Under the pieces are notes generated by a model. It worked only from the letters and a program-made list of their open reading frames with translations, was not told where the DNA came from and did no database searches. Shown one piece after another: positions 3,598 to 26,882 of a stretch of 27,692 nt of DNA (its first letter is position 1; the number at the start of each line of letters is the position of its first letter). A program made the position numbers and the translations under genes. Source of the stretch: Ruminococcus sp. UBA1394 (GTDB lineage: Bacteria > Bacillota > Clostridia > Oscillospirales > Ruminococcaceae). The stretch is from contig DBQM01000057.1 of assembly GCA_002305725.1 (NCBI GenBank), positions 1 through 27,692 of the forward strand. The letters are read 5' to 3'.

Positions 3598-3604
3598 AAT
3601 ATCT

Positions 3605-5210: not shown

Positions 5211-5225
5211 GGGAGGTACTTGAAA

Positions 5226-10007: not shown

Positions 10008-11534
10008 TTATATGTCGATATATTCCAGCTCAACGAACATTTCACTTTGTTCGCTGATAATGTTGCCTAATCGGTATTGTTCACATTCTTTTCCGCTATA
10101 TACATAATTGAGTTTGAATACAGCATCAAAAGTGTGCTTGTCAGCATTATCCTTGGAATCAAGCAAAGAAACTACATAATGCCAGATGCCTAACAAAAAT
10201 GGCTCAAATTCAAGTTCTTCAATATCACATAATTGTTCTTTGGTCAAATGAGTACCATCAGAACAAACGTAGAATTTCTGGCTATCTTGTATACTGCTGT
10301 CATTTTTGATAAATTCGATTATTTCAACAACAAGATCTTCATTTTTTTTCGGTGAGTTAAAATATTTTCTTCGGATTTTAATTACTTCACTCAAAATTTT
10401 ATGATAATGATTTTTCACCATTGCGGAGAAGTTATCAATTTGTTTTCTGTCATTCAGTCCTTCAGTTTTATAAATGGTTTTAAGAACTTCAAATTGGTTG
10501 TGGTGAAATCGTGCATAACTTTTATCAGGGGTTATTTTACAATCATTTTCTATGGTGAGATTTATTAAATCCAGAAATAATTTTTCAATTGCGTTTTTAT
10601 TTCTTTTGGGATGAATGGTCTGAATATTTTCCGTCAGAAACTTAAAGAAAATACTTCTGGATAATGTTATATCCTCTTTTTCCAATATAGAAATAATATC
10701 AGTACGGATATCCAGTTCTGACGGATAATAATCTAGTATTCTATTACATATTTCAGGGCTTGAATTCTCATTTTTTGAGGCTGATAACTTGGAAATTGAA
10801 TATCTGAGATGATTTGTTGCTCCCTTATTTGGTTCTGCCTTCATATGGTTATATTCAAGGTTGATATTCAGTTGCTTATAGTTAATATCAACTGATATTT
10901 TCTGATTTTTTTCAATTTTTGTTTGAAGTCGCTGTGAAGATATCAGGTAGTGCCAAACTCCTAATATAAATGCTTCAAACTCAAAATCTATCATGTTTCT
11001 GATATCGGATTTAGTTCTTGATGAGCCATTGGAGCAAATATAAAATTTCTGGTGCTCTTCAATACTGTTATCGTTAAGTATAAGGTACAGTGCTTTCCGG
11101 ACAAGTGTATCGTTTCTGAGAGATTTGTTATCATCAAAATATCTTTCGGCAAATTGAACCGCCTTTATATAAATTTTTTGGTACTGGTTTTTTACTTCGT
11201 AGTCAAATTCGTCTACAATTTCGCTGTCATTGAAAATATATACAACACTGTTTTTTTTATAGAACTTTCCAAGTCTGAAATCACCAGAAGCGTTTTTTAT
11301 TGACCCTAAGATTCGATTTGTATTATTATCCATCAGTCCCTCAAAATTACCGAGCGTATTATTCAAATGATTCGTCAATTGATTCAGGTCATAAAACATA
11401 TGTGCTTGTGACAGCTTTCCGATATTATTGTAGTTGTCACCGGGATTAAGTGGATTTTTCCTTGTATCTAAAAGTAAATTAAAAAATATACTGGCTGTGA
11501 ATTGCATATTTTTGCATGGCAGATTTATTGGCAT
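10008..11534 (-). CDS. Hypothetical 508-aa protein with an internal tandem domain duplication. Repeated motif QKFY[IV]CS[ND]G..TK...[DE]FEFE[AP]F[IL]LG[VI]WHY[LV][IV]S.
   Basis: AGGAG RBS 9 nt upstream on the minus strand. It is the only minus-strand gene. The two repeat units lie at about aa 150-210 and 400-470. Confidence 0.7.
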   Translation of the reverse strand: MPINLPCKNMQFTASIFFNLLLDTRKNPLNPGDNYNNIGKLSQAHMFYDLNQLTNHLNNTLGNFEGLMDNNTNRILGSIKNASGDFRLGKFYKKNSVVYIFNDSEIVDEFDYEVKNQYQKIYIKAVQFAERYFDDNKSLRNDTLVRKALYLILNDNSIEEHQKFYICSNGSSRTKSDIRNMIDFEFEAFILGVWHYLISSQRLQTKIEKNQKISVDINYKQLNINLEYNHMKAEPNKGATNHLRYSISKLSASKNENSSPEICNRILDYYPSELDIRTDIISILEKEDITLSRSIFFKFLTENIQTIHPKRNKNAIEKLFLDLINLTIENDCKITPDKSYARFHHNQFEVLKTIYKTEGLNDRKQIDNFSAMVKNHYHKILSEVIKIRRKYFNSPKKNEDLVVEIIEFIKNDSSIQDSQKFYVCSDGTHLTKEQLCDIEELEFEPFLLGIWHYVVSLLDSKDNADKHTFDAVFKLNYVYSGKECEQYRLGNIISEQSEMFVELEYIDI

Positions 11535-13021: not shown

Positions 13022-13036
13022 AAGGTGTTGGTTTAT

Positions 13037-14770
13037 ATGGGTATAAAGAAACCTCCGGAAATTTCGGAGTTTAAGGATACTTCAGCTGAGGAGTCAATAA
13101 ACGAGATAAAAAAGGGCATTGTTGAATTCGGCATGAAATCACTGGACAAAAACGACATAAAGTATCTGTCACAGACAGAGCTGCACTTTCCTGTAGTTTC
13201 TGTTCAGGATAAACATCATCTGATTGCTGTAAGCACAAAACGTTTTAGAGGTCTTGTATGGCTCTGTAGCTGGTTTGAGGTTGAGTCAGCGTACAGGGAC
13301 AAGAATAACGTGTACCGTGTAAGGCTGAGAATAAATGACAGAGCTGTTGAGGTCGATTACGATACATTATATCCGAAGGACATCACCAAACTTTCAAGAT
13401 ATGGTCTTATTATTAATTTTGACCATGCTGAAAGTCTGAGCAGATATATTTTCAGAATGATTGCAAAACTTGAAGTAAAGGAACAGTCCAACGGCATGGG
13501 CTTTATGATGCAGGGCGGACAACTGACATTCAGGGCATATGATGAAGAACCGCAGATACTCCAGTATACTGAAGGCATAACGTTGTCAGAGTACGTGGAA
13601 GGGCTAAACAGTCTGCTTACAAATACGGCTGTAATGTTCGCACTGTGCTGCAGCTGTGCTTCGCTTTTTCTTGCGTATTTAAGTATGAAATGCAGCATAG
13701 CACTGCAGTCATTCATAATTTCTTTCTACGGCAAGAGCACAACAGGCAAGAGCACATCACAGGCTTTAATGACATCAGTATTCACGAAGCCGGACGACAA
13801 GAAGATATACATTCCTTTTTTTGGCACACTTAATGCTATAGTGCGGAACCTGTCTCAGAAATATGGAATTCCCCAGCTGTTTGACGAGGCAACTGTTTCA
13901 TCGGGTCTGAATATGGAAAATCTGCTTTACACTATAACACTCGAGCAGGATAAGAGCAGATGCCGTAGTAATACAATGTTGGAAAAATCTGACACGTGGA
14001 AGCTGATTGCAATAACTTCCTCTGAAAACAGATTGCTTGCAGATAATCGTATGCATAACAAGGGGCTTGACGCTCGTCTGCTGAGTTTTGAACTGAAATT
14101 TACCGACAGCCGTGAACACAGTGACTTGATACATGAGTTCTGCGGCAAAAATTATGGCATTCTGGGCAAATCATTATCAGAATATCTTTTAGGTTCAGAG
14201 CCTGAAAAGATTGCTGAAATTTACGAAGAATGCAAGGAATTTATGAGAAATGCAATTGATGATGAATTGCGTTTCGACCTTACAGAAAGGCTTGTAAACG
14301 AGTATGCGCTCATTCTGATGTCTGCAAGGATTCTCAGTGATTTTGGCGTTAACATGGACACAGAGGGCATAACAGCCATTCTGACAGCAAATCACAATGA
14401 AACACGTGAGAGGACTGATATTGCTGACAAGTACTATCAGCATCTCGTAGCGTACGCAGTTACCCACCCATACATGGAAGGAATCAAGAAGGATGAAGCA
14501 AATAACTCTGTTGCATTTGTTGATGAGCTTTTCCTGAAAATTCTTGAAAATCACGGGGCTTCAAATCCCGACCTGGTCATAAGGGAACTTGATGCAGGAG
14601 GATATATTTTCAGACGTAAGAAAAACTCAATCAAGAACAGGCTTCGTTTCAACGATACACTTGTAAGTTGTTATGAAATTGTTCTGCCGAAGGACGATTC
14701 TGAATCCGATGACGGCTGTATGACGCTTGAATACGTACTTACACATTTTGAGGGGCTTGATGAATCATGA
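13037..14770 (+). CDS. P-loop NTPase of the SF3-helicase / DUF927 / VirE-like type. Likely a replication initiator or helicase. Walker A FYGKSTTGKST, Walker B LFDEA, motif C ITSSEN.
   Basis: AAAGGTG RBS before ATG 13037. Motifs read from the translation. Sits in a replication module with PolA downstream. Confidence 0.65.
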   Translation: MGIKKPPEISEFKDTSAEESINEIKKGIVEFGMKSLDKNDIKYLSQTELHFPVVSVQDKHHLIAVSTKRFRGLVWLCSWFEVESAYRDKNNVYRVRLRINDRAVEVDYDTLYPKDITKLSRYGLIINFDHAESLSRYIFRMIAKLEVKEQSNGMGFMMQGGQLTFRAYDEEPQILQYTEGITLSEYVEGLNSLLTNTAVMFALCCSCASLFLAYLSMKCSIALQSFIISFYGKSTTGKSTSQALMTSVFTKPDDKKIYIPFFGTLNAIVRNLSQKYGIPQLFDEATVSSGLNMENLLYTITLEQDKSRCRSNTMLEKSDTWKLIAITSSENRLLADNRMHNKGLDARLLSFELKFTDSREHSDLIHEFCGKNYGILGKSLSEYLLGSEPEKIAEIYEECKEFMRNAIDDELRFDLTERLVNEYALILMSARILSDFGVNMDTEGITAILTANHNETRERTDIADKYYQHLVAYAVTHPYMEGIKKDEANNSVAFVDELFLKILENHGASNPDLVIRELDAGGYIFRRKKNSIKNRLRFNDTLVSCYEIVLPKDDSESDDGCMTLEYVLTHFEGLDES

Positions 14771-15030: not shown

Positions 15031-16554
15031 ATGGCAAATATAAACAGTACAAAATACGCTAAAACATACCGCAGAATCAGTTCACACAATCAGGTCGGTA
15101 ATAACAGTTTAAATGCTCAGGAACAAGCAATCAAGCAATATGCAAAAGAGCATAATATAAAAATTGTTGGTGACTATGTGGATGTTGCTAAGAGTGGTAC
15201 ATCAGTTAAAAACAGAAGCGGATATCAGCAGATGATGAGTGATCTTGAGAAAAATCCTAAAGTGCAGTTTATACTGGTGCATAATCTGGATCGTCTCCAC
15301 AGAAACACACGTGAGCAGCTTAACATGATATATGAGCTTAAAGCCAGAGGCATAGGCATACTTACAGTAGGCGGACTTAACACACTGGACGAGGAATGTA
15401 TGTCAGAAATACTTGATGAATCCTGTCAGGCTGAGAAGTACTCTCGCAGGCTAAGCAAGGAAACAATGAAAGGGCTCAAAATCAATGCTGAGCAGATGTT
15501 ACACAATGGAGGGATTCCGCCGTATGGATATACAGTAGGACCGGATAAAAAACTCCATATTGATGAGTCAAAGGCTCCGGCAGTCAAAAGGATTTTTGAA
15601 ATGTATGCGGCTGGCATGAACTATCAGCAGATTATCAGGTGGCTTGATGATAACGGCTATAAAAATACAAAAGGCGGTTCATTTGTCAAGACTGCCATTA
15701 AAAGTATTCTTGAAAATGAAAAATACTGCGGTACTTATTTCTGGAACAAAAGGTCAGCTAAAGACTATCGTGGCATGAGAAACAACCATAAGCTGAAAGA
15801 TGACTACTACCGTGTTCCGGATGCGATTCCGGCTATTGTAAGTAAAGAATTATTCAATAAGGCTCAGGAAAGGCTTAAAGATAGTAAAAATAAAATCAGA
15901 AATCATAACGGTAAAAATTACTATCCTATGAACGGGAAGATATTCTGCAAAAAGTGCGGAAACAAGCTCAGTGGTCAGGTTCAGTACAGTAAAACCAACA
16001 AAAACAATGAGCCTGTGAAACAGTACAAATTTAGTTGTAAGTGTCCGGCAGTTAAGACAGTTAATGAGAAGTATCTTGATGATATGGTTATTTATGGGCT
16101 CAGAGAGTGCATATTTTCCTCTGCAAACATTAAAGAGATATTACAAAGGCTTAATGAATACAGCCAGTCTCAGAACAAGGAAATTGACCTCCAGATAAGT
16201 CTGTTAAATTCCGAGAAGGCAGAGCTTGAAAAAAGGCGTAAGAACCTTATGGATATTGTCAGCAAGGGGGAATACATACAGTCTATTGTTGATGAAATCA
16301 GGGACAAAGACGTGCAGATTGAAAAAATTTACAACAGAATCCGTGAATACGAGGCGTCAAAGAAAGTTTTCACAAAGGAAGACCTTGATTTCATAAGGAG
16401 CAAGTTTACAAGCTATGTCAGAGAGGAACGCAATGAAGATACTCTTGCTTTTCTTAATGATACTGTAGACAGGATAGAAATTGACGATAAAATCAGCGTG
16501 ATGCTGAAAAAGAACATCAGCGTGGACCGTGACACCAAGAAGATTTTCGGCTGA
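15031..16554 (+). CDS. Large serine recombinase (second copy, divergent).
   Basis: YRRISSHNQ catalytic Ser region, LVHNLDRLHRN, zinc ribbon CKKCGNKL...C.C, coiled-coil C-terminus. 507 aa. Confidence 0.9.
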   Translation: MANINSTKYAKTYRRISSHNQVGNNSLNAQEQAIKQYAKEHNIKIVGDYVDVAKSGTSVKNRSGYQQMMSDLEKNPKVQFILVHNLDRLHRNTREQLNMIYELKARGIGILTVGGLNTLDEECMSEILDESCQAEKYSRRLSKETMKGLKINAEQMLHNGGIPPYGYTVGPDKKLHIDESKAPAVKRIFEMYAAGMNYQQIIRWLDDNGYKNTKGGSFVKTAIKSILENEKYCGTYFWNKRSAKDYRGMRNNHKLKDDYYRVPDAIPAIVSKELFNKAQERLKDSKNKIRNHNGKNYYPMNGKIFCKKCGNKLSGQVQYSKTNKNNEPVKQYKFSCKCPAVKTVNEKYLDDMVIYGLRECIFSSANIKEILQRLNEYSQSQNKEIDLQISLLNSEKAELEKRRKNLMDIVSKGEYIQSIVDEIRDKDVQIEKIYNRIREYEASKKVFTKEDLDFIRSKFTSYVREERNEDTLAFLNDTVDRIEIDDKISVMLKKNISVDRDTKKIFG

Positions 16555-16617: not shown

Positions 16618-18582
16618 ATGAAACAGATTACAATCGATATTGAAACAGCATCAGATGAAAACATAAATACCTGTGGCGTTTACAGATACGCTGAATCGGA
16701 ATACTATGATTTACTGCTTGTTTCCTATTCAATTGACAATGGTCCGATAGCTACCTGTGATATTGCAAATGGTGAAAAACTGCCTGATGATGTACTGAAA
16801 GCACTTACAGATAGATCTGTCAGCAAGAAGGGATTTAACGTTAATTTTGAAAGGATATCTCTTTCGGTTTATCTTCGTAAAAATTACCCTGATTTACTGG
16901 ACTTTGATGATGCTGTCGGCAACTATATTGACCCAGTGTCATGGCAGTGTGATATGATTCATGGAAGATATCTTGGCATGATGTCAAGTCTTGAAGATAT
17001 GGCAAAGCTTTTAAGGCTCAAGGAAAAGAAAATGTCAGAGGGCAAGGAGCTTATAAAGACGTTCTGTATACTTCAGGAGAATAAAAAAGGAGAATTACAG
17101 TTTCTTGAAAAATCGGATGCTCCAAAACAGTGGAAAAAATTCAAAGAGTATAACAGACGTGATGTTGAAGTTGAAATGAAAATACAGCGTTATCTTTCTG
17201 AAATTCCAGTACCTGAATTCATTTGGAATGAATTTTACATTGACCAGCGTGTAAATGACAAGGGAATCCTCGTGGATACAGGTTTTGTGGCAAAGGCTGT
17301 GGAACTTGATAAGAAGGTAAAGGATGAACTTTTACCCAGACTAAAAGAATTAACGCAGCTTGATAACCCGAACTCTCCGGCTCAGATGAAAGAATGGCTT
17401 ATGTGCAGAGGAATCGAAGCTGAATCCCTTGACAAGAAGTCAGTCCAGAAAATATCTGAAACAGTTTCAGATGATGTTAAGGAAGTCCTAAGACTGTATC
17501 AGCAACTGTCCAAATCCTCGGTGAGCAAATACAGTGCGATGCTTAATGCAGTCTGCAAAGATAACAGGGCAAGAGGAATGTTCAGCTTTTACGGAGCAAA
17601 CAAAACAGGCAGATTTGCCGGACGTCTTATACAGCTGCAGAATCTTCCTCAGAATCATCTTGACAACCTTGCAGAGCTGAAAGGTCTGATAAGGGCAGGG
17701 GAGTTTGAGGCTGTAAAAGAGAGCAATGAAGATGCTCCTGACGTGCTTTCTCAACTCATACGCACAGCATTTATACCTCCGGAGGGTAAGAAGTATATAG
17801 TAGCTGACTTTTCGGCAATTGAGGCTCGTGTCATTGCATGGCTCGCAGATGAAAAATGGAGAATACAGGCATTTGCAAACGGTGAGGACATATACTGTGC
17901 CTCTGCTTCAAAGATGTTCGGTGTTCCTGTTGAGAAGAATGGAGTAAACGGATATTTAAGACAGAAAGGAAAGATTGCTGAACTTGCCTGTGGCTACGGC
18001 GGTTCAATCGGTGCAATCAAGGCTATGGGAGGTACAGAACTAAAGCTTACTGATGATGAACTTTACTCACTTGTTGACGACTGGAGAAAATCTTCTCCTA
18101 ACATAGTAAAATTCTGGGGAGATGTGCAGTCAGTGGCTGAAAAGGTCATTACAGACAGAAGCAGTATGACTCTGGGCAGATTAAAGTTTTCTTATGAATC
18201 CGGAATCTTTTTTATAGAGCTGCCTTCAGAACGCAGACTTGCATATGTAAGACCAAAGGTTGAAAAGAATGAGGACGGCAAGAGAATAATCACCTATGAG
18301 GGCGTTGGTGAAAGCAGGAAATGGTTAAGGCTTGAGACATATGGTCCTAAACTCGTTGAGAATATAACCCAGGGGATTGCCAGAGACCTGTTAATGTACT
18401 CAATGACAACAATGCAGAATACGGCTATAGTGGGTCATGTACACGATGAAATTATTGTGGAGTGTGATATGGACGTTACTGTCCAGCAGGTGTGCAGTCT
18501 TATGGAAAAGACTCCTGACTGGGCTGATGGTTTGCTACTCCGTGCTGATGGGTATGAGTGTGAGTTTTATATGAAGAAATAA
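16618..18582 (+). CDS. Family-A DNA polymerase with an N-terminal 3'-5' proofreading exonuclease and no 5' nuclease domain.
   Basis: Exo I DIETAS. Motif A DFSAIEARV. Motif B RQKGKIAELACGYGGS. Motif C VHDE. AAGGAG RBS 9 nt upstream. Confidence 0.85.
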   Translation: MKQITIDIETASDENINTCGVYRYAESEYYDLLLVSYSIDNGPIATCDIANGEKLPDDVLKALTDRSVSKKGFNVNFERISLSVYLRKNYPDLLDFDDAVGNYIDPVSWQCDMIHGRYLGMMSSLEDMAKLLRLKEKKMSEGKELIKTFCILQENKKGELQFLEKSDAPKQWKKFKEYNRRDVEVEMKIQRYLSEIPVPEFIWNEFYIDQRVNDKGILVDTGFVAKAVELDKKVKDELLPRLKELTQLDNPNSPAQMKEWLMCRGIEAESLDKKSVQKISETVSDDVKEVLRLYQQLSKSSVSKYSAMLNAVCKDNRARGMFSFYGANKTGRFAGRLIQLQNLPQNHLDNLAELKGLIRAGEFEAVKESNEDAPDVLSQLIRTAFIPPEGKKYIVADFSAIEARVIAWLADEKWRIQAFANGEDIYCASASKMFGVPVEKNGVNGYLRQKGKIAELACGYGGSIGAIKAMGGTELKLTDDELYSLVDDWRKSSPNIVKFWGDVQSVAEKVITDRSSMTLGRLKFSYESGIFFIELPSERRLAYVRPKVEKNEDGKRIITYEGVGESRKWLRLETYGPKLVENITQGIARDLLMYSMTTMQNTAIVGHVHDEIIVECDMDVTVQQVCSLMEKTPDWADGLLLRADGYECEFYMKK

Positions 18583-18588
18583 ATTAAG

Positions 18589-18629
18589 GCGGAACAACTT
18601 TTAAAAGGGTTGTTCTGCTATTTTTTTTG
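18589..18629 (+). terminator. Intrinsic terminator after PolA.
   Basis: gcggaacaac / gttgttctgc stem (one G.U pair), then TATTTTTTTT. Confidence 0.6.
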
Positions 18630-18712: not shown

Positions 18713-18741
18713 TTGACAAACTTCAAAAATAGATGTATACT
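18713..18741 (+). promoter_or_regulatory. Consensus-like promoter TTGACA-17-TATACT.
   Basis: -35 at 18713-18718, -10 at 18736-18741. Confidence 0.55.
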
Positions 18742-18768
18742 AAAGGTAGAATCAATAATATTCGGGAG

Positions 18769-18999
18769 GTGTCTGATATAAAAATAAGTTACAAGAAATT
18801 GTGGATACTGCTGATTGAAAAAGAAATATCTCCTGCAACGCTGCGAAAGGATCTGAATATCGCAACAGGTACTATGACAAAGCTGCGTAAAAATGAGGAA
18901 GTGGCTCTGTCCGTACTTCTGCGGATTTGCGAGTATCTGGATTGTAATATAGGGGATATATGTGATGCGGTTCAAACAGATATAGGCGGGAACTTATAA
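18769..18999 (+). CDS. Small HTH transcriptional regulator (XRE / Cro-CI type, YozG/HTH_26-like). The start codon is uncertain.
   Basis: Motif KKLWILLIEKEISPATLRKDLNIATGTMTKLRKNEEVALSVLLRICEYLDCNIGDI. The track start ATG 18733 lies inside the predicted promoter, so an in-frame downstream start (GTG 18769) is more likely. Confidence 0.6.
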   Translation: MSDIKISYKKLWILLIEKEISPATLRKDLNIATGTMTKLRKNEEVALSVLLRICEYLDCNIGDICDAVQTDIGGNL

Positions 19000-19303: not shown

Positions 19304-19330
19304 GCGGCAGTGCAGAAAGAAGTGAGAGTT

Positions 19331-20059
19331 ATGCCATTTTGTATATACTGTGGTCATCAGTTAGCTGACGATGCAAAATTCTGTTCTGAGTGTGGAAAAA
19401 CAACAAATATATCCAATCAAAACACTCAGAGAAAAACAGTCTATGACGGCGAGATACATAAATGTCCAAATTGCGGAGAAATATTAAATTCATTTGCTTC
19501 AAATTGTGCTTCTTGTGGATACGAATTGCGTGATGCAAAGAATTCAAATGCTATTAGAGAGTTTGCTTTAAAATTAGAACAAATAGAGAATAGTCGAAAT
19601 GTTAGTGCTAATGGCTTTTCAGGGTTAAAAAATAAAATAAACCAACTTTCAAGTGTTAATCCTATGGATGAGCAAAAAATATCTTTAATAAGAAGTTTTG
19701 TTATTCCAAATACCAAAGAAGATATTTATGAATTTATGATTCTTGCGTCATCCAATATCGATTTAAAACTATATGGGTTTGCCTATAGTAGCAGTCAATT
19801 CCAAGGTATGATGGCAACATCTCAAAGAGCCATTTCTGATGCTTGGCTTGCAAAATTTGAACAAGCGTATCGAAAAGCTCAACTTCTATTTATTGAAAGT
19901 CAAGAACTCTTGAGTATCGAGGAACTTTATGAACGTAAGATGAAAGAAATACAAAAGAAAAAAAGGCAACTCCCAATGTTTTTTATATTTGGTTTCGGAG
20001 GAGCGTTGCTATTGGTGTTACTAATTTGGATACTTGTATTTTTAACAGATGCAATGTGA
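19331..20059 (+). CDS. Membrane-anchored protein with two zinc ribbons (CIYCG..CSECG and CPNCG..CASCG) and a C-terminal transmembrane helix.
   Basis: Four CxxC pairs near the N-terminus. C-terminal hydrophobic stretch FFIFGFGGALLLVLLIWILVFL. Confidence 0.6.
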   Translation: MPFCIYCGHQLADDAKFCSECGKTTNISNQNTQRKTVYDGEIHKCPNCGEILNSFASNCASCGYELRDAKNSNAIREFALKLEQIENSRNVSANGFSGLKNKINQLSSVNPMDEQKISLIRSFVIPNTKEDIYEFMILASSNIDLKLYGFAYSSSQFQGMMATSQRAISDAWLAKFEQAYRKAQLLFIESQELLSIEELYERKMKEIQKKKRQLPMFFIFGFGGALLLVLLIWILVFLTDAM

Positions 20060-20076: not shown

Positions 20077-21447
20077 ATGGCTTTATTCAATAAAAACAAC
20101 CGCAAAGGTGGATTCATGGACGAAATCCGCTGTGATGAACCATCATATCTTATCTGGAAATGGCATCCTTCTGGCGTTCAGTCAGGTACAGGTAATCGTG
20201 AAACCGCTATCCGCTGGGGTTCGTCACTAAGAGTCAAAGATGGCGAAGTAGCTGTATTTGTTTACAAGCAAAAAAATGGAATCATGCAGGATTTCATTGA
20301 AGGTCCTTTTGACCAGATTATAAAAACTGCAAATTTCCCTGTTCTTGCAAGTATTGTCGGTCTTGCTTATGAGGGTGGTACTCCATTTCAGGCAGAAGTA
20401 TATTTTATCAATATTGCTCGAATTATTCAGGTAAAATTTGCTGTACCGTTCTTTGATGTATATGACCCGAGATTTGCAGATTTTGGTGTACCTGTTGCTG
20501 TTAGGGGTACTGTAAGCTTTCAAATTTCTGATTACAGAGAATTTATTAAACTACATAGGCTCAGCAGTTTTAATCTTGATGATTTTCAGAAGCAGATTCG
20601 TGACGCTGTCAGCCGATATGTAAAAGATACTGTTGCTAATGTTCCTGCGGCTAATAATATTCCTGTCATTCAAATTGAAAGTAAGACTGCATTGATTAAC
20701 GATACGATAGAGTATGACATAAGTGAACGTTTGAAAGAAACATTCGGCGTTACTGTTTCAGGTGTTGATATCGGGGTAATTGAGATTGATAAAACAAGTG
20801 ACGGATATGCCAGACTCATGGCTGTTACTCAGAATGTTACTACTGCTACAGTTGAAGCACAAACTGCTGCAAACATCAAAAATATTCATGATAAGCAGCG
20901 TATTGAAGCTGAAAATTATGAGGAAACCCTGCGGATTCAGCGTGAAGAAGCACAGTATGCACAGCATAAGCAGACACAGAGTGCAAACTTTGCTGCATTC
21001 CAGACAGAAAAACAGGCTGAGGTCGGTATTGCCGGTGCAAATGCGTTAGGGCAAATGGGCGCTAATGGTGCTGGGAGTGTGGATTTAGGAGGTAGTGGAG
21101 CAGGCTTTAATCCTGCTGCAATGATGGCAGGCATGGCTCTTGGCGGTGCTGTCGGCCAGAATATGGCAGGCATGATGAATAATATGATGTCTGGAATGAG
21201 TCAACAAACTACTTCGGGAACAACACCTCCGCCTGTTCCAACAGCTACATATCATGTTGCAGTTAATGGTCAGGCTACCGGACCGTTTGATATAAATACA
21301 TTAAAAAATATGGCGTTAGCAGGACAGTTTATTTCTGATAGCCTGGTATGGAAATTAGGAATGGCTGAATGGGTTAAAGCAGGAGTTGTTGAGGATCTGA
21401 AAGAAGTGCTTTATAACACTATGCCGCCTGTACCATCAATGGAATAA
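20077..21447 (+). CDS. SPFH/band-7 family protein (COG4260-like) with a low-complexity Gly/Ala/Met linker and a C-terminal DUF4339/GYF-like domain.
   Basis: AAAGGAG RBS. N-terminus GGFMDEIRCDEPSYLIWKWHP resembles the COG4260 start. C-terminus YHVAVNGQATGPFDINTLKNMALAGQFISDSLVWKLGMAEWVKAG. Confidence 0.6.
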   Translation: MALFNKNNRKGGFMDEIRCDEPSYLIWKWHPSGVQSGTGNRETAIRWGSSLRVKDGEVAVFVYKQKNGIMQDFIEGPFDQIIKTANFPVLASIVGLAYEGGTPFQAEVYFINIARIIQVKFAVPFFDVYDPRFADFGVPVAVRGTVSFQISDYREFIKLHRLSSFNLDDFQKQIRDAVSRYVKDTVANVPAANNIPVIQIESKTALINDTIEYDISERLKETFGVTVSGVDIGVIEIDKTSDGYARLMAVTQNVTTATVEAQTAANIKNIHDKQRIEAENYEETLRIQREEAQYAQHKQTQSANFAAFQTEKQAEVGIAGANALGQMGANGAGSVDLGGSGAGFNPAAMMAGMALGGAVGQNMAGMMNNMMSGMSQQTTSGTTPPPVPTATYHVAVNGQATGPFDINTLKNMALAGQFISDSLVWKLGMAEWVKAGVVEDLKEVLYNTMPPVPSME

Positions 21448-21462: not shown

Positions 21463-21582
21463 ATGATCAAATGCTCAAAATGCAATGCAGAATTATCAGA
21501 TGATACAAAATTCTGCTCATATTGTGGCACTAAGATTGAGACACCTCCATCTGGTGCAAAAATCCTCCCATTCTTTATATAG
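21463..21582 (+). CDS. 39-aa zinc-ribbon peptide (CSKC...CSYCG).
   Basis: AAAGGAG sits 7 nt before ATG 21463. Same C..C....DDxKFCS.CG pattern as the N-terminus of the 19331 product. Confidence 0.45.
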   Translation: MIKCSKCNAELSDDTKFCSYCGTKIETPPSGAKILPFFI

Positions 21583-21626
21583 TGATAAAATATAGCTGTT
21601 TTTGATATAGAAATGAAGGTGTACAT

Positions 21627-24600
21627 ATGTTGAAACCCGGATTGTATGAACAGGTAATCAATAAAGAACTGTCGAATAAAATAGACGAATCCAGACAACT
21701 TGTAGATAAACGTAATATAGATAAAGCCGAGGCTCCGCAGGTTCTTTCAGGATATCTGAGTGAGATAATTGAAAAGGGTCTTGAGCATTTCGGAAATGAT
21801 GAAATTGAAAAGAAACTGGATCTTGCCAATAAAATTGTAAAGACAATTACAGAATCAACCGGTGATGATGAGTTTGACGGTATGAGCGTTGATGAACGTG
21901 CTGAACAACTTCTTGCAGTTGCTGATATGCAGAATAACGCCGATTCAGTAAACAGAAAAATTAGAATTTCACGTCCGGAAACTTCGATGGCAGCAAGTTC
22001 TCTCTTTACCGGAGCAGTACATGAGCCACAGATGATGACTGAACTTAAAAAAGAAATTCTGTCTTCTGACCAGATAGATATGCTTGTTTCTTTCATTAAG
22101 TGGAGCGGACTTGTTCTGATACTTGATGAACTTGAAGAATTCACGCAAAAGGGCGGAAAACTGCGTGTTATCACAACATCATACATGGGTGCCACTGATG
22201 CAAAAGCTGTTGAGGAACTGAGCAGACTTCCGAATACAGAGATAAAGGTTTCCTATGATACACAGCGAACAAGGCTTCATGCAAAATCATACGTTTTCTA
22301 TCGTGATACAGGTTTTACGACGGCTTATGTCGGCTCTTCAAATCTTTCCAATGCGGCAATGTCAAGCGGTCTGGAGTGGAATCTGAAAATTACAGCTCAC
22401 GACCAGCCACATACTATACGCAAGATAAATGCGACTTTTGAAAACTACTGGAACAGTACCGATTTTTCGCTTTATTCAGCGAATGACAGAGAACATCTTT
22501 TGCGGGCACTGAAAGCTGAGAAGTATCATTCTGATAATAATGATTACAGCTTTGATATACGTCCGTTTTCCTATCAGCAGGAAATTCTTGATAAGCTGAC
22601 GGCGGAGCGTACTATCAGAAAGCATTATAAAAATCTTGTGGTTGCCGCAACAGGTACGGGAAAAACGGTTATCTCTGCATTTGACTATAAACGCTTTAAA
22701 ACTGAAAATTCAGGTCATGCAAGGCTTTTATTTGTTGCCCACAGAAAAGAAATTCTCAATCAGAGCATTAAATGTTTTCGTGGCGTTCTGCATAACGCAA
22801 ATTTCGGTGAGCTTTTCTATGGCGGAATTACACCGGATAGTTTTGATGAACTTTTCATTTCTATTGATACATTTAATTCTCAGGAGTTGTACAAAAAGAC
22901 TTCTCCTGATTTCTATGATTTTATTATAGTTGACGAGTTCCACCATGCTGCAGCACCTGCATATCAGAGATTGCTTGAATACTATAAACCAAAGATTCTG
23001 CTTGGACTTACTGCAACCCCTGAACGTATGGACGGTAGGGATATTCTCAAGTATTTTGATAACCGCATCGCAGCAGAGATACGTCTTCCGGAGGCAATAG
23101 ACAGAAAGCTTCTTTGTCCGTTCCATTACTTCGGAATATCTGATGAAGTGGATCTGCGTAACGTAAAATGGTCAAGAGGGGGATACGATAAAACAGCATT
23201 ATCTAAAGTTTACACAGGAAATGATATGCGTGTTATTTTGATTCTGAAACAGCTGAATAAATATGTTGCTGACATGGAAAATGTCAAGGGGCTGGGTTTT
23301 TGTGTATCAAAGGAACACGCTGCATATATGGCTCTGCGTTTCAATGAAAGAGGTGTTTCGTCTATTGCACTGACTGCTGACAGTTCAAAGCAGGACAGAG
23401 AAAGTGCACAGTCAAGGCTGGTAAGCGGTGAAATCAAGTTCATTTTTACTGTGGACTTGTATAATGAAGGCGTGGATATTCCGGCAGTCAATACGGTAAT
23501 GTTCCTGCGTCCGACAGAATCTCTGACAGTATTTTTACAACAGCTTGGACGTGGTCTGAGACTTGCCGAGGGTAAGGATTGTCTGACGGTGCTGGATTTT
23601 ATTGGACAGGCACATAAAAAATATAACTTTGAATCCAGGTTTGCGGCACTTCTTGGAAATACAAAGAAAAGTGTGAAAGAAGAAATTGAACGAGGATTTC
23701 CTCTTCTTCCAAAGGGTTGTTATATCAAGCTTGAAAAGCAGGCACAGCGTTATATTCTTGATAATATACGTCAGTCTGTAGGAAGTAAAAACGCCATTGT
23801 CAGACGTCTGGAAACCTTTGAAGAAGATTCGGGAAGGAAACTGACACTTGCTAATTTCCTTGATTATTATAATCTTGATATAAGCTCTATATATGCAACA
23901 AAATACAGCTTTGCAAGACTTTGTGTACAGGCGGGCGTTAAGGCAGATTTCAGCGAATCTCTTGAAGAAATCATCACAAAGGCACTTCCAAGACTTTCAT
24001 ATATTGACTCTCACAGGTGGATAGAATTTATAATTGATTATCTGCCGGGAGTATATGACTTTACTGACAGAGATTTTAATGGCGTACAGCAGAAAATGTG
24101 GCAGATGCTTCAGTATACGATATGGCAGAAATCATGGGAGGACTGCGGTTTTACAGATTTGCTTGATGGATTCAGAAAAATCGCAGATTCTCCGGTTATG
24201 CTTGCTGAGATTATGGAACTGCTTTATTACAAATACGATAAGATAGACTTTATTTCTGAGCCTGTACAGGTAAATTATGATTGTCCTTTAGATGTTCATT
24301 GCAGTTATACAAGAGATCAGATACTTGTGGCACTGGACTTCATGAAACCAAATACGGTTCGTGAAGGAACAAAATATCTTGATGACAAGAAAACAGACCT
24401 GCATTTTATAACGCTCAACAAATCAGATAAAGAATATTCTCCCACAACCATGTACAATGATTACTCTATTAATGACACGCTGTTCCACTGGCAGAGCCAG
24501 AGTACAACAACTCCTCAAAGCAATACAGGACAGAGATATATTCACCACAGGCAAAAAAGCTGTTATGAAATGTTGTTTGTTCGTGAGTACAAAAATTCAA

Positions 24601-24746
24601 GGCTTGGTGCAGCACCATATACGTTTCTTGGGCTTGCTGATTTCGTAAGTAGTGAAGGATCAAAGCCTATGGATATTGTGTGGAAGCTAAGAAAACCAAT
24701 TCCCGCTAAATATATCAGAAAGACAAGTCAGATGGTGGTTGTTTAA
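21627..24746 (+). CDS. 1039-aa fusion of an N-terminal PLD-family (HxK) nuclease domain, an SF2 DEAH helicase (ResIII-like) and a C-terminal DUF3427-like domain.
   Basis: HKD motif RLHAKSYVF...GSSNLS. Helicase motif I AATGTGKT, motif II IIVDEFHH, motif III LGLTATPER. A long conserved C-terminal region follows. Confidence 0.8.
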   Translation: MLKPGLYEQVINKELSNKIDESRQLVDKRNIDKAEAPQVLSGYLSEIIEKGLEHFGNDEIEKKLDLANKIVKTITESTGDDEFDGMSVDERAEQLLAVADMQNNADSVNRKIRISRPETSMAASSLFTGAVHEPQMMTELKKEILSSDQIDMLVSFIKWSGLVLILDELEEFTQKGGKLRVITTSYMGATDAKAVEELSRLPNTEIKVSYDTQRTRLHAKSYVFYRDTGFTTAYVGSSNLSNAAMSSGLEWNLKITAHDQPHTIRKINATFENYWNSTDFSLYSANDREHLLRALKAEKYHSDNNDYSFDIRPFSYQQEILDKLTAERTIRKHYKNLVVAATGTGKTVISAFDYKRFKTENSGHARLLFVAHRKEILNQSIKCFRGVLHNANFGELFYGGITPDSFDELFISIDTFNSQELYKKTSPDFYDFIIVDEFHHAAAPAYQRLLEYYKPKILLGLTATPERMDGRDILKYFDNRIAAEIRLPEAIDRKLLCPFHYFGISDEVDLRNVKWSRGGYDKTALSKVYTGNDMRVILILKQLNKYVADMENVKGLGFCVSKEHAAYMALRFNERGVSSIALTADSSKQDRESAQSRLVSGEIKFIFTVDLYNEGVDIPAVNTVMFLRPTESLTVFLQQLGRGLRLAEGKDCLTVLDFIGQAHKKYNFESRFAALLGNTKKSVKEEIERGFPLLPKGCYIKLEKQAQRYILDNIRQSVGSKNAIVRRLETFEEDSGRKLTLANFLDYYNLDISSIYATKYSFARLCVQAGVKADFSESLEEIITKALPRLSYIDSHRWIEFIIDYLPGVYDFTDRDFNGVQQKMWQMLQYTIWQKSWEDCGFTDLLDGFRKIADSPVMLAEIMELLYYKYDKIDFISEPVQVNYDCPLDVHCSYTRDQILVALDFMKPNTVREGTKYLDDKKTDLHFITLNKSDKEYSPTTMYNDYSINDTLFHWQSQSTTTPQSNTGQRYIHHRQKSCYEMLFVREYKNSRLGAAPYTFLGLADFVSSEGSKPMDIVWKLRKPIPAKYIRKTSQMVVV

Positions 24747-24795: not shown

Positions 24796-24885
24796 ATTGC
24801 CCTGCACGGGCAGTGGCACTGCGTGCAGCAATGTCCCTGTTCCTCACTGACGTTCGTCACAGTGCCAGCCCCTTACGGGGCAATG
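24796..24885. other. GC-rich (about 60%) island with three nested or adjacent hairpins, in surroundings of about 30% GC.
   Basis: ctgcacg...cgtgcag (24802-24828) encloses cagtg.cactg. cactgacgttcgtcacagtg (24845-24864). gccccttacggggc (24868-24881). The outer pair attgccc/gggcaat spans the lot. Confidence 0.5.
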
Positions 24886-25349
24886 TTAATTAATATATTC
24901 TTATTTTATTGATTTTTTTGAAAGTATATCTGTATAATAATATCATTAAATTATTATATATTATTTTAAAAATATTATAAATATAATAGTCATGGATAAT
25001 AAAGTGAGAATTAAAAAGTATTTTGGAATTAAGAAACCCTTATGGATTTAAATTGTTTTTGTTGTAGATTCGATAAATTCAGCCATAAGGGTGATTTTTT
25101 CTTTGGGGGTAAAATGCTGATACAGTCAATAGCATTACTTTTAGAAATATGACAAATATGGTAGTGGTGACCTTCGGAACTGTTATTTTTACATTGAATT
25201 AATCCGGATTTGTGAAAACTGTAGGTTTCGGTCTGAACTGTCTGACTCAATTGTTATAAATGAAGATTTTCATTCTAACTTCCAAAAAATAGTAGCATTT
25301 TGAGATGAAGTGTGATAAACTAAAAATGCTGCAGCGGAAGGAAAAGAAA

Positions 25350-26882
25350 ATGATTGAAATTAAAAAAGCAGCCTTGTATGCAAGGTTTTCTTCGGACAAT
25401 CAGAGAACAGAATCTATTGATGCACAGGTCAGGGCAATGAAAGATTTCTGTACTCAGAATAAATGGAAAATTGTAGAAACTTATGTTGATGAGGCTTATT
25501 CGGCTACCAATGACCGCAGACCCAGTTTTCAGCGTATGATTGAAGACAGCGGAAAAGGAGTGTTTGATATAGTTCTCGTGCATAAGCTGGACAGGTTCAG
25601 TCGCAACAGATATGATTCTGCGATTTATAAGAATAAGCTTAAACATAACGGTGTACGCTTGTACAGTGTTCTTGAAAGACTTGATGATTCGCCTGAGTCA
25701 ATTATTCTTGAGTCAATGCTTGAATCAATAGGGGAGTACTATTCTTCAAATATTGCAAGAGAGGTTATGAAGGGTTTAAAGGAAAATGCGTTTCATTGTA
25801 AACATACAGGTGGATCCGCGCCTTTAGGGTATGATGTCGGAGAGGATAAGAAGCTTGTAATCAACGAGCGTGAAGCCGAGTCTGTCAGGATAATCTATGA
25901 TATGTATATAAACGGATACAGTTATCGTAACATAGCTGAATATCTTAATTCAAAGGGGTATGTCACTAAAAAAGGAAATAAATTCAAACCGAATTCTGTA
26001 TCATTCTATGAGATACTGAACAATCTGAAATACACAGGTACTTATGTATACAACCGTTCTTCTTCAAAGGACTATAGTCACAGACGGAATAGTCACCGCT
26101 ATAAGCCAGAAGAAGAAATAATAAAAATTACAGGAGGATGTCCAGCTATCATATCCAAAGAAACTTTTCAGAAAGCGGCTGAAAGAAGAAAATCAGTAAC
26201 TGCTAAGGGGCAGTTAGGCTCAAAGCATTTCTATCTGTGTTCGGGTATTGTTGTTTGCGGAGAATGCGGCAAGAAAATGTTCGGAAGAAAACGCTTCGGG
26301 AAATATGCGTTCAACGTATACTGCTGTACATCATACAAAGCTGACTGCTGTAATATAAAGGAGGTTGATAGTGACAGATTGGATGAACATACCGTGAAGT
26401 TACTGGAACGGGAAATGTTTAATGAATCAGCAATGAAAAAACGAATTGCCGGGCTTAATAAACGTATCGAAAGGTATAATTGCAGGATTCCGGCTATGAG
26501 AAAATCTTTGAACAGGGAGCTTGATAAAATTAATACAGAACTCATAAAACTTCATAGTAAAAAAGAAAAATCTATTGAAACTTATGAAAAGATAAACACT
26601 CTGGAGTTAAGGAAAAATGATTTGGAATATGCAATTGATAATCTTCATGAAATAGAGTCTGTCAGTTATTCTGATTACAGTAATCTGATAAATCGGTTTT
26701 ATGAATTAAAAGAGGATAATCTGCGTTTCCGTACGTTTGTTCAGGACTATATCACAAGTATTACGGTATACAGGGATAAGGTTGTTTTTTGTCTGAATTA
26801 CGGTTTGGGAATCCTTGATGATGTTACGAAAAAATATACATTTGAAAGGAAATTGTTTAAGACGCCAACTCAAAAAATGTGA
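25350..26882 (+). CDS. Large serine recombinase (third copy), a close paralog of the 8035-9609 recombinase.
   Basis: GGAAGG RBS before ATG 25350. ALYARFSSDNQRTESIDAQVRAM... nearly identical in motifs to recombinase 1. Zinc ribbon CGECGKKM...C.C. Confidence 0.9.
   Translation: MIEIKKAALYARFSSDNQRTESIDAQVRAMKDFCTQNKWKIVETYVDEAYSATNDRRPSFQRMIEDSGKGVFDIVLVHKLDRFSRNRYDSAIYKNKLKHNGVRLYSVLERLDDSPESIILESMLESIGEYYSSNIAREVMKGLKENAFHCKHTGGSAPLGYDVGEDKKLVINEREAESVRIIYDMYINGYSYRNIAEYLNSKGYVTKKGNKFKPNSVSFYEILNNLKYTGTYVYNRSSSKDYSHRRNSHRYKPEEEIIKITGGCPAIISKETFQKAAERRKSVTAKGQLGSKHFYLCSGIVVCGECGKKMFGRKRFGKYAFNVYCCTSYKADCCNIKEVDSDRLDEHTVKLLEREMFNESAMKKRIAGLNKRIERYNCRIPAMRKSLNRELDKINTELIKLHSKKEKSIETYEKINTLELRKNDLEYAIDNLHEIESVSYSDYSNLINRFYELKEDNLRFRTFVQDYITSITVYRDKVVFCLNYGLGILDDVTKKYTFERKLFKTPTQKM

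What the first reader, a model, noticed from the sequence alone, without database searches (positions are those of the whole stretch)
21627..24746. Single-polypeptide PLD nuclease, DEAH helicase and DUF3427-like protein as a candidate stand-alone defence enzyme
The HKD nuclease motif, a complete SF2 helicase core (GTGKT, DEFH, TATPER) and a long conserved C-terminal domain are fused in one 1039-aa protein. It lies at the end of a regulator-led cargo cluster on a mobile element. PLD plus helicase combinations occur in restriction-like and anti-phage systems such as DISARM's DrmC/helicases and Mokosh. I cannot place this exact architecture in a characterised system.
Basis: partly seen in the sequence, partly recalled or inferred. 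Interest (0 to 1): 0.65.

Follow-up and report, generated by a model that had tools for sequence, protein, structure and literature searches.

The report
SauUSI-type methylated-DNA restriction enzyme
This 1039-residue protein is an uncharacterised relative of SauUSI, a well-studied single-protein bacterial enzyme that uses ATP to track along and cut foreign DNA carrying methylated cytosine, so it is an ordinary member of a known defence family and not a new system.

Summary
An intact 1039-aa ORF (21627-24746, +) encodes, in order, a PLD nuclease, an SF2 helicase-like ATPase and a DUF3427 domain. It is the architecture of SauUSI, the ATP-dependent Type IV (modification-dependent) restriction endonuclease of Staphylococcus aureus (PDB 7CLG).

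- **Family match.** PADLOC matches a Type IV methyl-directed REase model nearly end to end (E 1.2e-233). SauUSI is the best solved-structure match by sequence (3.6e-90) and by fold (Foldseek 1.3e-37 over 926 columns).
- **Functional residues.** All four mutagenesis-proven SauUSI catalytic residues are conserved, as are the helicase motifs.
- **Type IV context.** No methyltransferase lies in the window or near 76 homologues. Homologues travel singly in varied defence islands.

One difference stands out. This widespread "long form" (Bacteria and Archaea) has a conserved, acidic ~100-aa helical insertion before the PLD core that SauUSI lacks. Overall identity to SauUSI is only ~30%, and the TRD is ~21% identical, so sequence specificity is unknown.

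Verdict: new member of a known kind, low interest.

The parts
21627..24746 (+). Complete gene for a 1039-aa SauUSI-family Type IV restriction endonuclease (stop codon included)
   Evidence: ORF. PADLOC mREase_IV PDLC03659, E 1.2e-233, aa 115-1028 on profile positions 15-934 of 945. PDB 7clg_A, E 3.6e-90. Foldseek 7clg_B, E 1.3e-37 over 926 columns.
21615..21621 (+). Ribosome-binding site GAAGGTG, 5 nt before the ATG
   Evidence: Read directly from the sequence.
21627..21683 (+). aa 1-19: N-terminal motif (LKPGLYEQVINK) shared with SauUSI residues 7-24
   Evidence: Alignment A1. G5 and Y7 are invariant across phyla.
21684..22001 (+). aa 20-125: acidic (pI 4.55), mostly helical insertion. 94 of its residues have no counterpart in SauUSI. 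Specific to the long-form subfamily; function unknown
   Evidence: Gap in SauUSI in alignment A1. Conserved in 11 distant relatives from Bacteria and Archaea. Always N-terminal in 597 representative clusters. AF2 gives helices 36-53, 60-78 and 88-99 at low confidence. No Pfam hit.
22002..22496 (+). aa 126-290: PLD-family nuclease domain. Catalytic H218 (22278-22280), K220 (22284-22286), N239 (22341-22343), E250 (22374-22376)
   Evidence: Pfam PLDc_2 and RE_NgoFVII. The four residues align with SauUSI H119/K121/N139/E150 and are invariant in 47 sequences. Their alanine mutants inactivate SauUSI (PMC3141236).
22497..22556 (+). aa 291-310: linker between nuclease and ATPase (aligns with the disordered SauUSI linker, 201-220)
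   Evidence: Alignment. AF2 pLDDT below 50 at 298-309. The SauUSI linker 192-220 is unresolved in the crystal.
22557..23726 (+). aa 311-700: SF2 helicase-like translocase ATPase. Motif I GTGKT 343-347 (22653-22667), motif II DEFH 436-439 (22932-22943), motif III TATP 462-465 (23010-23021), motif VI QQLGRGLR 638-645 (23538-23561)
   Evidence: Pfam ResIII and Helicase_C. Motif positions. Motifs invariant across both subfamilies. 39% identity to SauUSI 221-598.
23727..24293 (+). aa 701-889: all-helical coupler domain linking ATPase to TRD
   Evidence: AF2 helices 700-870, pLDDT 83-92 from residue 720. Colinear with the SauUSI coupler, 599-804 (domain defined in PMC7913695).
24294..24743 (+). aa 890-1039: SRA-fold target-recognition domain (the conserved part of DUF3427). 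Pocket residues Y917 (24375-24377), F927/I928 (24405-24410), D945 (24459-24461), W955 (24489-24491). Variable 'wedge' position T915
24797..24885 (+). GC-rich structured element about 50 nt after the stop codon; it contains a terminator-like hairpin at 24868-24881. Probable transcript end of the cluster; role not established
   Evidence: RNA fold -43.2 kcal/mol, z = -3.56, 0 of 200 shuffles fold as well. Terminator-like hit. No Rfam family. Found only in this element.

Best explanation
The gene encodes a single-polypeptide, ATP-dependent Type IV (modification-dependent) restriction endonuclease of the SauUSI family. The mechanism below is transferred from SauUSI and is therefore inferred.
1. 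The C-terminal SRA-fold domain flips a modified cytosine (most likely 5-methyl- or 5-hydroxymethylcytosine) out of incoming DNA into a pocket formed by Y917, F927, I928, D945 and W955.
2. Through the helical coupler, this switches on the SF2 ATPase, which translocates along double-stranded DNA and extrudes loops.
3. The N-terminal PLD nuclease domains (H218/K220/N239/E250), presumably paired in a homodimer, then cut and progressively shred the modified DNA.
4. The host's own DNA is spared because it lacks the modification, so no partner methyltransferase is needed.

The gene is mobile-element cargo and acts on its own. What is shown here: domain order, fold, conservation of catalytic, motor and pocket residues, absence of a methyltransferase, and modular single-gene distribution in defence islands. 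What is inferred: ATP-dependent translocation, dimerisation, and which modification and sequence context it reads. The protein belongs to a widespread long-form sister subfamily (PADLOC PDLC03659). That subfamily carries an extra conserved, acidic ~100-aa helical insertion in front of the PLD core, whose role is unknown.
For: - **PADLOC.** The mREase_IV model PDLC03659 matches at E 1.2e-233 nearly end to end, and the SauUSI model PDLC03658 at 8.8e-95. SauUSI itself matches these two models reciprocally.
- **Solved structures.** SauUSI (7CLG) is the best match by sequence (3.6e-90), by BLASTP (32% over aa 132-768, 1e-92, plus the TRD at 5e-5) and by fold (Foldseek 1.3e-37 over 926 columns; the next hit is RadD at 1.5e-12).
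- **Colinearity.** The protein is colinear with SauUSI domain by domain: PLD 24%, ATPase 39%, coupler 19%, TRD 21% identity.
- **Functional residues.** SauUSI H119/K121/N139/E150 correspond to H218/K220/N239/E250, invariant in 47 sequences; their mutation kills SauUSI. Helicase motifs I, II, III and VI are intact.
- **Pocket.** Y831/F841/I842/D858/W868 of SauUSI are conserved as Y917/F927/I928/D945/W955 (residue roles from PMC7913695).
- **No methyltransferase.** No MTase motif occurs in any frame of the window, and 0 of 76 homologue loci have a C5-MTase-like ORF within 6 kb. There are no MTase Pfam hits among the window's 20 large ORFs.
- **Defence-island context.** Close homologues sit in varied defence islands next to Wadjet, IetA/S-like genes, SRA_ScoMcrA and RE_HaeIII, without a constant partner.
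- **NUDIX linkage.** The family shows the MutT/NUDIX gene linkage reported for SauUSI (14 of 76 loci directly adjacent; PMC3141236).
Against: - No member of the long-form subfamily turned up as experimentally characterised in the paper searches.
- Identity to SauUSI is only about 30% overall and about 21% in the TRD, so the modification type and sequence context could differ.
- The residue that fills the gap left by the flipped base (SauUSI M829) is T915 here and varies across the family.
- The 94-residue insertion absent from SauUSI could change regulation or assembly.
- The full-length AF2 model is only moderate (pLDDT 67, pTM 0.39). Inter-domain geometry and dimerisation are therefore untested.
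- The NUDIX neighbour common in the family is missing in this window.
Confidence: 0.85

Rival explanations
1. It has the same SauUSI-like machinery but a different target. The SRA-like domain reads another modification (for example glucosylated or otherwise hypermodified cytosine only, N4-methylcytosine or a modified purine), or the same modification in a very different sequence context. In that case its biological range differs from SauUSI.
Against: The residues modelled in SauUSI to hydrogen-bond the cytosine (D858), contact the methyl group (Y831) and stack on the base (W868) are invariant in both subfamilies. This argues for a 5-substituted cytosine.
Confidence: 0.25
2. It is the restriction/translocase subunit of a classical Type I, Type III or NgoAVII/CglI-like restriction-modification system. 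It would need a separate methyltransferase or specificity partner and would cut unmodified DNA.
For: The Pfam ResIII domain is present. NCBIfam EcoAI-type HsdR matches at 5.5e-41, and PADLOC REase_I and REase_III give weak hits. The RE_NgoFVII PLD model hits at 4.7e-9. S. aureus copies are still sometimes annotated 'type III restriction endonuclease subunit R'.
Against: The HsdR score is 140.8 bits against a cut-off of 550, and it covers only the motor. No methyltransferase or specificity gene occurs in the window or beside 76 homologues. The protein carries its own SRA-type reader. The nuclease is PLD, not PD-(D/E)XK.
Confidence: 0.04
3. It is a component of, or an analogue of, a newer PLD-plus-helicase anti-phage system (DISARM DrmC with its helicases, Mokosh, or the 'PLD-helicase' anti-phage protein). 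Its mechanism would be independent of modification.
For: PADLOC DrmC matches at 2e-6 and PLD_Helicase at 0.0041. NCBIfam phospholipD_antiphage matches at 7.8e-4.
Against: These hits are marginal and cover the PLD domain only (17.9 bits against a cut-off of 1100 for NF042964). No DrmA/B/M or Mokosh model is hit in the window. The near full-length Type IV match is more than 200 orders of magnitude better.
Confidence: 0.03
4. The enzyme works as part of a multi-gene system with the upstream genes of its cluster: the HTH regulator, an 85-aa protein, the double-zinc-ribbon membrane protein, the SPFH/GYF protein and a 39-aa zinc-ribbon peptide.
For: The genes lie on the same strand with 15-46 nt spacing. 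No terminator-like site was predicted between the genes, and a promoter-like site (11 of 12) lies only at the head of the cluster. The same cluster recurs in two other samples.
Against: Those two contigs carry the identical REase or SPFH protein, so they are the same element and not independent evidence. Homologues at 69-84% identity have entirely different neighbours and never the zinc-ribbon/SPFH pair. None of the upstream proteins matches a PADLOC model. SauUSI works alone when moved to E. coli (PMC3141236).
Confidence: 0.07

Closest known systems
SauUSI (Staphylococcus aureus USA300 SAUSA300_2431; PDB 7CLG; PADLOC mREase_IV PDLC03658)
   Same: Same domain order in one polypeptide: PLD nuclease, linker, SF2 ATPase, helical coupler, SRA-fold TRD. 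Same catalytic tetrad, helicase motifs and five of six base-pocket residues. No cognate methyltransferase. The wider family shows the same frequent linkage to a MutT/NUDIX gene.
   Different: About 30% identity overall (about 21% in the TRD). A 94-residue acidic helical insertion before the PLD core is absent from SauUSI. The wedge residue is T915 instead of M829. There is no NUDIX neighbour in this window. The gene is carried on a serine-recombinase mobile element, whereas SauUSI is a conserved chromosomal gene of staphylococci. No experimental data exist for this subfamily.
Long-form SauUSI-like proteins annotated 'DUF3427 domain-containing protein' / PADLOC mREase_IV PDLC03659
   Same: This is the group the protein belongs to. 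Relatives run 38-84% identical over the full length, insertion included, in Bacillota, Bacteroidota, Actinomycetota, Pseudomonadota, Cyanobacteria, Verrucomicrobiota, Nitrospirota, Myxococcota and Methanomicrobiales.
   Different: Nothing substantive. The window protein is a typical member. The closest named relatives are from Ruminiclostridium (77%) and from Fibrobacter and Fibrobacteraceae MAGs (74%); a Ruminococcus MAG locus is 70% identical.
DUF3427-PD-(D/E)XK fusions (McaZI, BwiMMI, EfaL9I, YenY4I; PMC6765204)
   Same: They share the DUF3427/SRA-like reader and restrict 5hmC phage T4gt.
   Different: They have no helicase/ATPase, a PD-(D/E)XK rather than PLD nuclease, are often found next to methyltransferases, and are much smaller.
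NgoAVII / CglI (R2H2 PLD-nuclease plus SF2 ATPase restriction enzymes)
   Same: A PLD nuclease combined with an SF2 translocase; the Pfam RE_NgoFVII PLD model hits aa 141-263.
   Different: Nuclease and ATPase are separate subunits.
DISARM DrmC and Mokosh
   Same: They contain PLD-family domains and operate alongside helicases in anti-phage defence.
   Different: They are multi-gene systems. There is only a marginal PLD-domain match to DrmC (2e-6) and none to Mokosh models. They have no SRA reader.

Membership tests
SauUSI-family Type IV restriction endonuclease | N-terminal PLD-family nuclease with the catalytic H-x-K ... N ... E residues (SauUSI H119, K121, N139, E150) | tested here: met
   Pfam PLDc_2 at 2.3e-11. 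H218/K220/N239/E250 align with the SauUSI residues and are invariant in 47 sequences.
SauUSI-family Type IV restriction endonuclease | Central SF2 (DExH) helicase-like ATPase with intact motifs I, II, III and VI | tested here: met
   ResIII 3.2e-35 and Helicase_C 3.5e-13. GTGKT 343, DEFH 436, TATP 462, QQLGRGLR 638. 39% identity to the SauUSI ATPase.
SauUSI-family Type IV restriction endonuclease | Alpha-helical coupler domain between ATPase and TRD | tested here: met
   AF2 gives an all-helical region at 700-870 with pLDDT 83-92 from residue 720. It is colinear with SauUSI 599-804. The Foldseek alignment to 7CLG spans 926 columns. Sequence similarity in the distal half is weak (19%).
SauUSI-family Type IV restriction endonuclease | C-terminal SRA-fold target-recognition domain (DUF3427) with a conserved flipped-base pocket | tested here: met
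SauUSI-family Type IV restriction endonuclease | All domains in one polypeptide, with no cognate DNA methyltransferase | tested here: met
   Single ORF. No MTase Pfam hits among the 20 window ORFs. No MTase motif in any frame of the window, and 0 of 76 homologue loci with a C5-MTase-like ORF (motif-based, so of limited sensitivity). The rest of the host genome is not available.
SauUSI-family Type IV restriction endonuclease | ATP-dependent cleavage of 5mC/5hmC-containing DNA and restriction of modified plasmids or phage | not testable with these tools
   This needs biochemistry or plating assays. It is inferred only from residue and fold conservation.
SauUSI-family Type IV restriction endonuclease | Homodimer held together by the PLD nuclease domains | not tested
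   No multimer prediction was available. A single HxK per chain implies that two chains are needed to form a PLD active site (general PLD-nuclease knowledge; SauUSI dimer in PMC7913695).
SauUSI-family Type IV restriction endonuclease | Accessory, not defining: adjacent MutT/NUDIX hydrolase gene | tested here: not met
   It is absent from the window, where 558 nt of non-coding DNA follow the gene. It is present next to 14 of 76 homologues. It is dispensable for SauUSI restriction (PMC3312211), so its absence does not affect membership.
Type I restriction enzyme HsdR (EcoAI family) | Whole-protein match above the NCBIfam cut-off, with HsdM/HsdS partners | tested here: not met
   NF046051 scores 140.8 bits against a cut-off of 550, covering the motor region only. 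No HsdM or HsdS is present in the window.
DISARM (DrmC with DrmA/DrmB/DrmM) | Small PLD protein within an operon with a DrmA helicase, DrmB (DUF1998) and a methyltransferase | tested here: not met
   Only a PLD-domain hit to DrmC at 2e-6. No Drm partners appear among the window proteins scanned.
Mokosh / PLD-helicase anti-phage proteins | Match to the MkoA/MkoB or PLD_Helicase / NF042964 models | tested here: not met
   No Mokosh model appears among the 25 PADLOC families shown of 26 found. PLD_Helicase scores 0.0041. NF042964 scores 17.9 bits against a cut-off of 1100.

The most novel reading that the evidence does not exclude
The long-form subfamily is not simply 'SauUSI with extra residues'. 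One possibility is that its conserved, acidic, about 100-aa N-terminal helical insertion is a regulatory module. It is absent from SauUSI and present from Actinomycetota to methanogenic archaea. It could act as an autoinhibitory DNA mimic over the PLD active site, or as a docking surface. The other possibility is that its divergent SRA domain, with a different wedge residue, reads a different set of modified bases or sequence contexts. Either would make this the first view of a mechanistically distinct and much more widespread branch of ATP-dependent Type IV enzymes.
Probability: 0.2. Interest if true: 0.4.

Novelty: new member of a known kind. Interest (0 to 1): 0.15.

Why it matters
Its importance is mostly practical. 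SauUSI-type enzymes are major barriers to transforming bacteria with DNA prepared in Dcm+ E. coli. A mobile-element-borne copy in an anaerobic gut or rumen Clostridia-like organism predicts that genetic work on that host, or on any recipient of the element, needs cytosine-methylation-free DNA. It also shows that this Type IV enzyme moves as a single-gene cargo among defence islands, often next to Wadjet. The only scientifically open points are the role of the conserved N-terminal insertion that SauUSI lacks, and the specificity of the divergent reader domain. Neither changes the classification.

Tried and rejected
1. **Near-identical plasmids or phages.** I searched 15.8 kb of the window against the plasmid and phage collections by megablast to name the element. 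There was no match.
2. **RNA families.** An Rfam scan of the whole window found no family. The GC-rich hairpin after the gene therefore stays unassigned.
3. **NUDIX linkage as a possible novelty.** I considered the adjacent NUDIX gene as a new finding, with the idea that 5-methyl-dCTP sanitation protects the host. I quantified the linkage (14 of 76 directly adjacent). It had already been reported for SauUSI-like genes in 2011 and shown to be dispensable in 2012, and it is absent from this window.
4. **Multi-gene system with the upstream genes.** I tested whether the zinc-ribbon and SPFH/GYF genes form a system with the enzyme. I rejected this because homologues at 69-84% identity never have them and no PADLOC model matches them.
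5. **N-terminal module in other architectures.** I searched the N-terminal 140 aa against 1.84 billion representative proteins. It occurs only at the N-terminus of this family or of truncated fragments of it.
6. **Full-length AF2 model.** It was only moderate (pTM 0.39), so I drew no conclusions from inter-domain geometry. The TRD was re-predicted alone for the fold test.
7. **Characterised long-form member.** Paper searches for one found nothing.
Full report
**Observation.** The window contains an intact ORF at 21627-24746 on the + strand, with an ATG start and 1039 codons. A GAAGGTG ribosome-binding site lies 5 nt upstream of the ATG. Pfam places four domains in order, all above their curated cut-offs:
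- a PLD nuclease domain (PLDc_2 aa 147-275; RE_NgoFVII PLD 141-263)
- ResIII (311-467)
- Helicase_C (543-646)
- DUF3427 (870-1028)

One small correction applies. The canonical HxK(x)4D string is absent. The site is the nuclease-type HxK...GSSN...E arrangement.

**What it is.** PADLOC matches the protein nearly end to end to a "Type IV methyl-directed restriction enzyme" model (PDLC03659, E 1.2e-233, aa 115-1028 on profile positions 15-934 of 945). It also matches a second model of the same name (PDLC03658, 8.8e-95). That second model is SauUSI itself. The S. aureus protein P0147 (953 aa) covers it 1-953/953 and cross-hits PDLC03659 at 8.1e-82.

Among all solved structures, SauUSI (PDB 7CLG) is by far the best match:
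- by sequence, 3.6e-90
- by BLASTP, 32% identity over aa 132-768 at 1e-92, plus the C-terminal domain at 5e-5
- by fold, the AlphaFold model hits 7clg_B at E 1.3e-37 over 926 aligned columns, with the next hit (RadD) at 1.5e-12

In an alignment of 34 long-form (window-type) sequences, the window protein among them, and 13 staphylococcal-type sequences, the protein is colinear with SauUSI domain by domain. Identities are PLD 24%, linker 15%, ATPase 39%, coupler 19% and TRD 21%.

**Functional residues.** Xu et al. showed that H119A, K121A, N139A and E150A inactivate SauUSI (PMC3141236). These four residues align with H218, K220, N239 and E250 and are invariant in all 47 sequences. The helicase motifs are also invariant.

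Tumuluri et al. described the SauUSI C-terminal domain as an SRA fold. In their model it flips 5-methylcytosine into a pocket lined by Y831, F841, I842 and W868, with D858 hydrogen-bonding the base and M829 filling the gap (PMC7913695). Here Y917, F927, I928, D945 and W955 occupy those positions and are invariant or nearly so. Only the gap-filling residue differs (T915), and that position also varies among staphylococci.

**Type IV character and stand-alone status.**
- None of the 20 large ORFs of the window has a methyltransferase domain.
- No frame of the window contains the C5 or N6/N4 methyltransferase motifs, and none of 76 homologue loci has a C5-methyltransferase-like ORF within 6 kb.
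- Homologues at 69-84% identity lie in quite different neighbourhoods. These include Wadjet JetABCD (three cases), IetA/IetS-like genes, Fic/VbhA, RE_HaeIII and an SRA_ScoMcrA gene, and one sits on a tyrosine-integrase mobilisable element. No partner is constant.
- The one recurrent neighbour is a ~130-aa MutT/NudG-like NUDIX gene. It is directly adjacent and co-oriented in 14 of 76 loci and lies within 3 kb in 18. This linkage is already published for SauUSI-like genes (at least 60 cases, PMC3141236). The S. aureus NUDIX gene is dispensable for restriction (PMC3312211).
- In this window the NUDIX gene is missing. The gene is followed by 558 nt of non-coding DNA and then a serine recombinase gene.

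**How it most likely works.** This is inferred by homology with SauUSI (PMC7913695; bioRxiv 10.1101/2025.10.16.682607).
1. The SRA domain recognises a modified cytosine.
2. This activates the ATPase, which translocates on dsDNA and extrudes loops.
3. The dimerised PLD domains then cut and, over repeated cycles, shred the modified DNA.

Host DNA escapes because it is unmodified. This work shows the architecture, the folds, the conserved residues, the lack of a methyltransferase and the modular distribution. It does not show the activity, the dimer or the exact specificity.

**What is different from SauUSI.** The extra length is not a simple N-terminal extension. The first ~19 residues (LKPGLYEQVINK...) align with SauUSI residues 7-24. 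About 94 residues follow (aa 20-125) that have no SauUSI counterpart, before the PLD core resumes at SSLFTGA. Four properties of this insertion were established:
- It is acidic (pI 4.55).
- It is predicted helical, but at low confidence.
- It has no Pfam match.
- It is conserved in length and motif pattern in relatives from Bacillota, Bacteroidota, Actinomycetota, Cyanobacteria, Pseudomonadota, Nitrospirota, Myxococcota and Methanomicrobiales.

A search of 1.84 billion representative proteins with the first 140 residues (aa 1-140, which contain the insertion) finds it only at the N-terminus of this family or of its truncated fragments (597 clusters at E<=1e-3). The long form is therefore the widespread version and staphylococcal SauUSI the shorter one. 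I found no paper that characterises a long-form member.

**Context in the window.** The gene is last in a tightly spaced same-strand cluster, with gaps of 15-46 nt:
- an HTH_26 gene (18733-18999)
- an 85-aa ORF
- a double-zinc-ribbon membrane protein (about 19310-20059)
- an SPFH/GYF protein (20077-21447)
- a 39-aa zinc-ribbon ORF (21463-21582)
- the restriction gene

A terminator-like hairpin (18588-18619) and a promoter-like site (18713-18741, 11 of 12) precede the cluster. A GC-rich structured element (24797-24885, z = -3.56) follows it. This cluster recurs only on contigs that carry the identical proteins, so it is one element sampled several times.

The contig also has three large serine recombinases, a DUF927/Cch-type helicase, a family-A polymerase and an IetA-like ATPase.

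**Rivals.**
- A Type I or Type III restriction subunit is excluded. The sub-threshold HsdR score (140.8 against 550 bits) covers only the motor, there are no methyltransferase or specificity partners, and the protein has its own SRA reader.
- DISARM, Mokosh and PLD-helicase models match marginally or not at all.
- A multi-gene system with the upstream SPFH and zinc-ribbon genes is unlikely, because more distant homologues never keep them.
- The most serious residual uncertainty is specificity. The reader domain is divergent enough that the modification or sequence context could differ from S-5mC-NG-S.

**Verdict.** This is a new, uncharacterised member of a known and well-understood kind, the SauUSI-type ATP-dependent Type IV restriction endonucleases. 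It belongs to the widespread long-form sister subfamily. Interest is low (0.15).

Noticed in passing
L002 11117-11485; L003 11681-12115; L005 12318-12707; L088 7098-7499; also L007, L012, L018, L023, L024, L031, L038, L046, L048, L052, L063, L067, L085: A ~130-aa MutT/NudG-like NUDIX gene lies directly next to homologues of the restriction gene, co-oriented, upstream or downstream. This holds for 14 of 76 loci across several phyla (18 of 76 within 3 kb). The best NCBIfam matches are a Nudix hydrolase, the pyrimidine (deoxy)NTP diphosphatase NudG and MutT, all below their cut-offs. The linkage was already noted by Xu et al. 2011, and the gene's role is still unknown. One untested idea is that it removes 5-methyl-dCTP from the nucleotide pool so that host DNA never becomes a target. 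The gene is absent from this window.
   Followed up: yes
window 19310-20059 and 20077-21447: A double-zinc-ribbon protein with a C-terminal membrane segment is followed 17 nt later by an SPFH (Band_7_1) protein with a C-terminal GYF_2 domain. They sit between an HTH gene and the restriction gene. Neither has a PADLOC match. The pair does not accompany more distant homologues of the restriction gene. It may be an independent cargo module of unknown function.
   Followed up: partly
window 21463-21582: A 39-aa ORF (MIKCSKCNAELSDDTKFCSYCGTKIE...) with a CxxC...CxxC zinc-ribbon pattern and a strong AAAGGAG ribosome-binding site lies between the SPFH gene and the restriction gene. It was not called as a gene in the public contigs and has no PADLOC match.
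   Followed up: partly
window 24797-24885: A GC-rich ~90-nt island in very AT-rich intergenic DNA folds into a long imperfect hairpin (-43.2 kcal/mol, z = -3.56, no shuffle folds as well). It has no Rfam family. Among the 90 loci fetched up to that search, it was found only in the near-identical contig L001. It could be a terminator, a small RNA or a recombinase-related site.
   Followed up: partly
window 19-972: An AAA+ ATPase that matches the PADLOC IetA models (8.7e-38) is cut off by the start of the contig. The ORFs that follow (974-4336) have no Pfam match, and no S8 protease (IetS) was seen. A relative of the restriction gene (P0023) sits beside an AAA plus Peptidase_S8 pair in another genome (L089).
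   Followed up: no
window 8035-9609, 15031-16554, 25305-26882; 13025-14770; 16618-18582: There are three large serine recombinases on one 27.7-kb contig, together with a DUF927/Cch-type helicase (weak Cch HTH_56 match) and a family-A DNA polymerase. From my own knowledge, this resembles the recombinase and replication modules of staphylococcal SCC elements. It suggests nested or composite integrative elements. Element boundaries were not mapped, and there is no near-identical plasmid or phage record.
   Followed up: partly
window 5220-6320 and 6547-7485: An Amidoligase_2 protein with an N-terminal zinc-finger-like (LIM) match lies next to a class-II glutamine amidotransferase domain protein. 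This looks like another cargo pair of unclear function on the same element.
   Followed up: no
window 10008-11534 (- strand): This 508-aa ORF is the only large ORF on the minus strand. It lies in the most AT-rich part of the window (GC about 0.31, reversed AT skew) and has no Pfam or PADLOC match.
   Followed up: no
L002 11486-18047; L086 10935-17307; L089 1-6368: Three of the six close homologues looked up on other contigs lie immediately beside a complete Wadjet (JetABCD) operon. Two also have a 754/755-aa DEAD/SWI2_SNF2 helicase gene just upstream. This may be a recurrent defence-island arrangement in gut and rumen Clostridia.
   Followed up: no
window 18588-18619 and 18713-18741: A strong terminator-like hairpin (14 bp stem plus a T-run) after the polymerase gene is followed by an 11-of-12 sigma-70-like promoter. 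The promoter's -10 box overlaps the annotated ATG of the HTH_26 gene (18733). The regulator may therefore be translated from a leaderless mRNA or from a later start codon.
   Followed up: no
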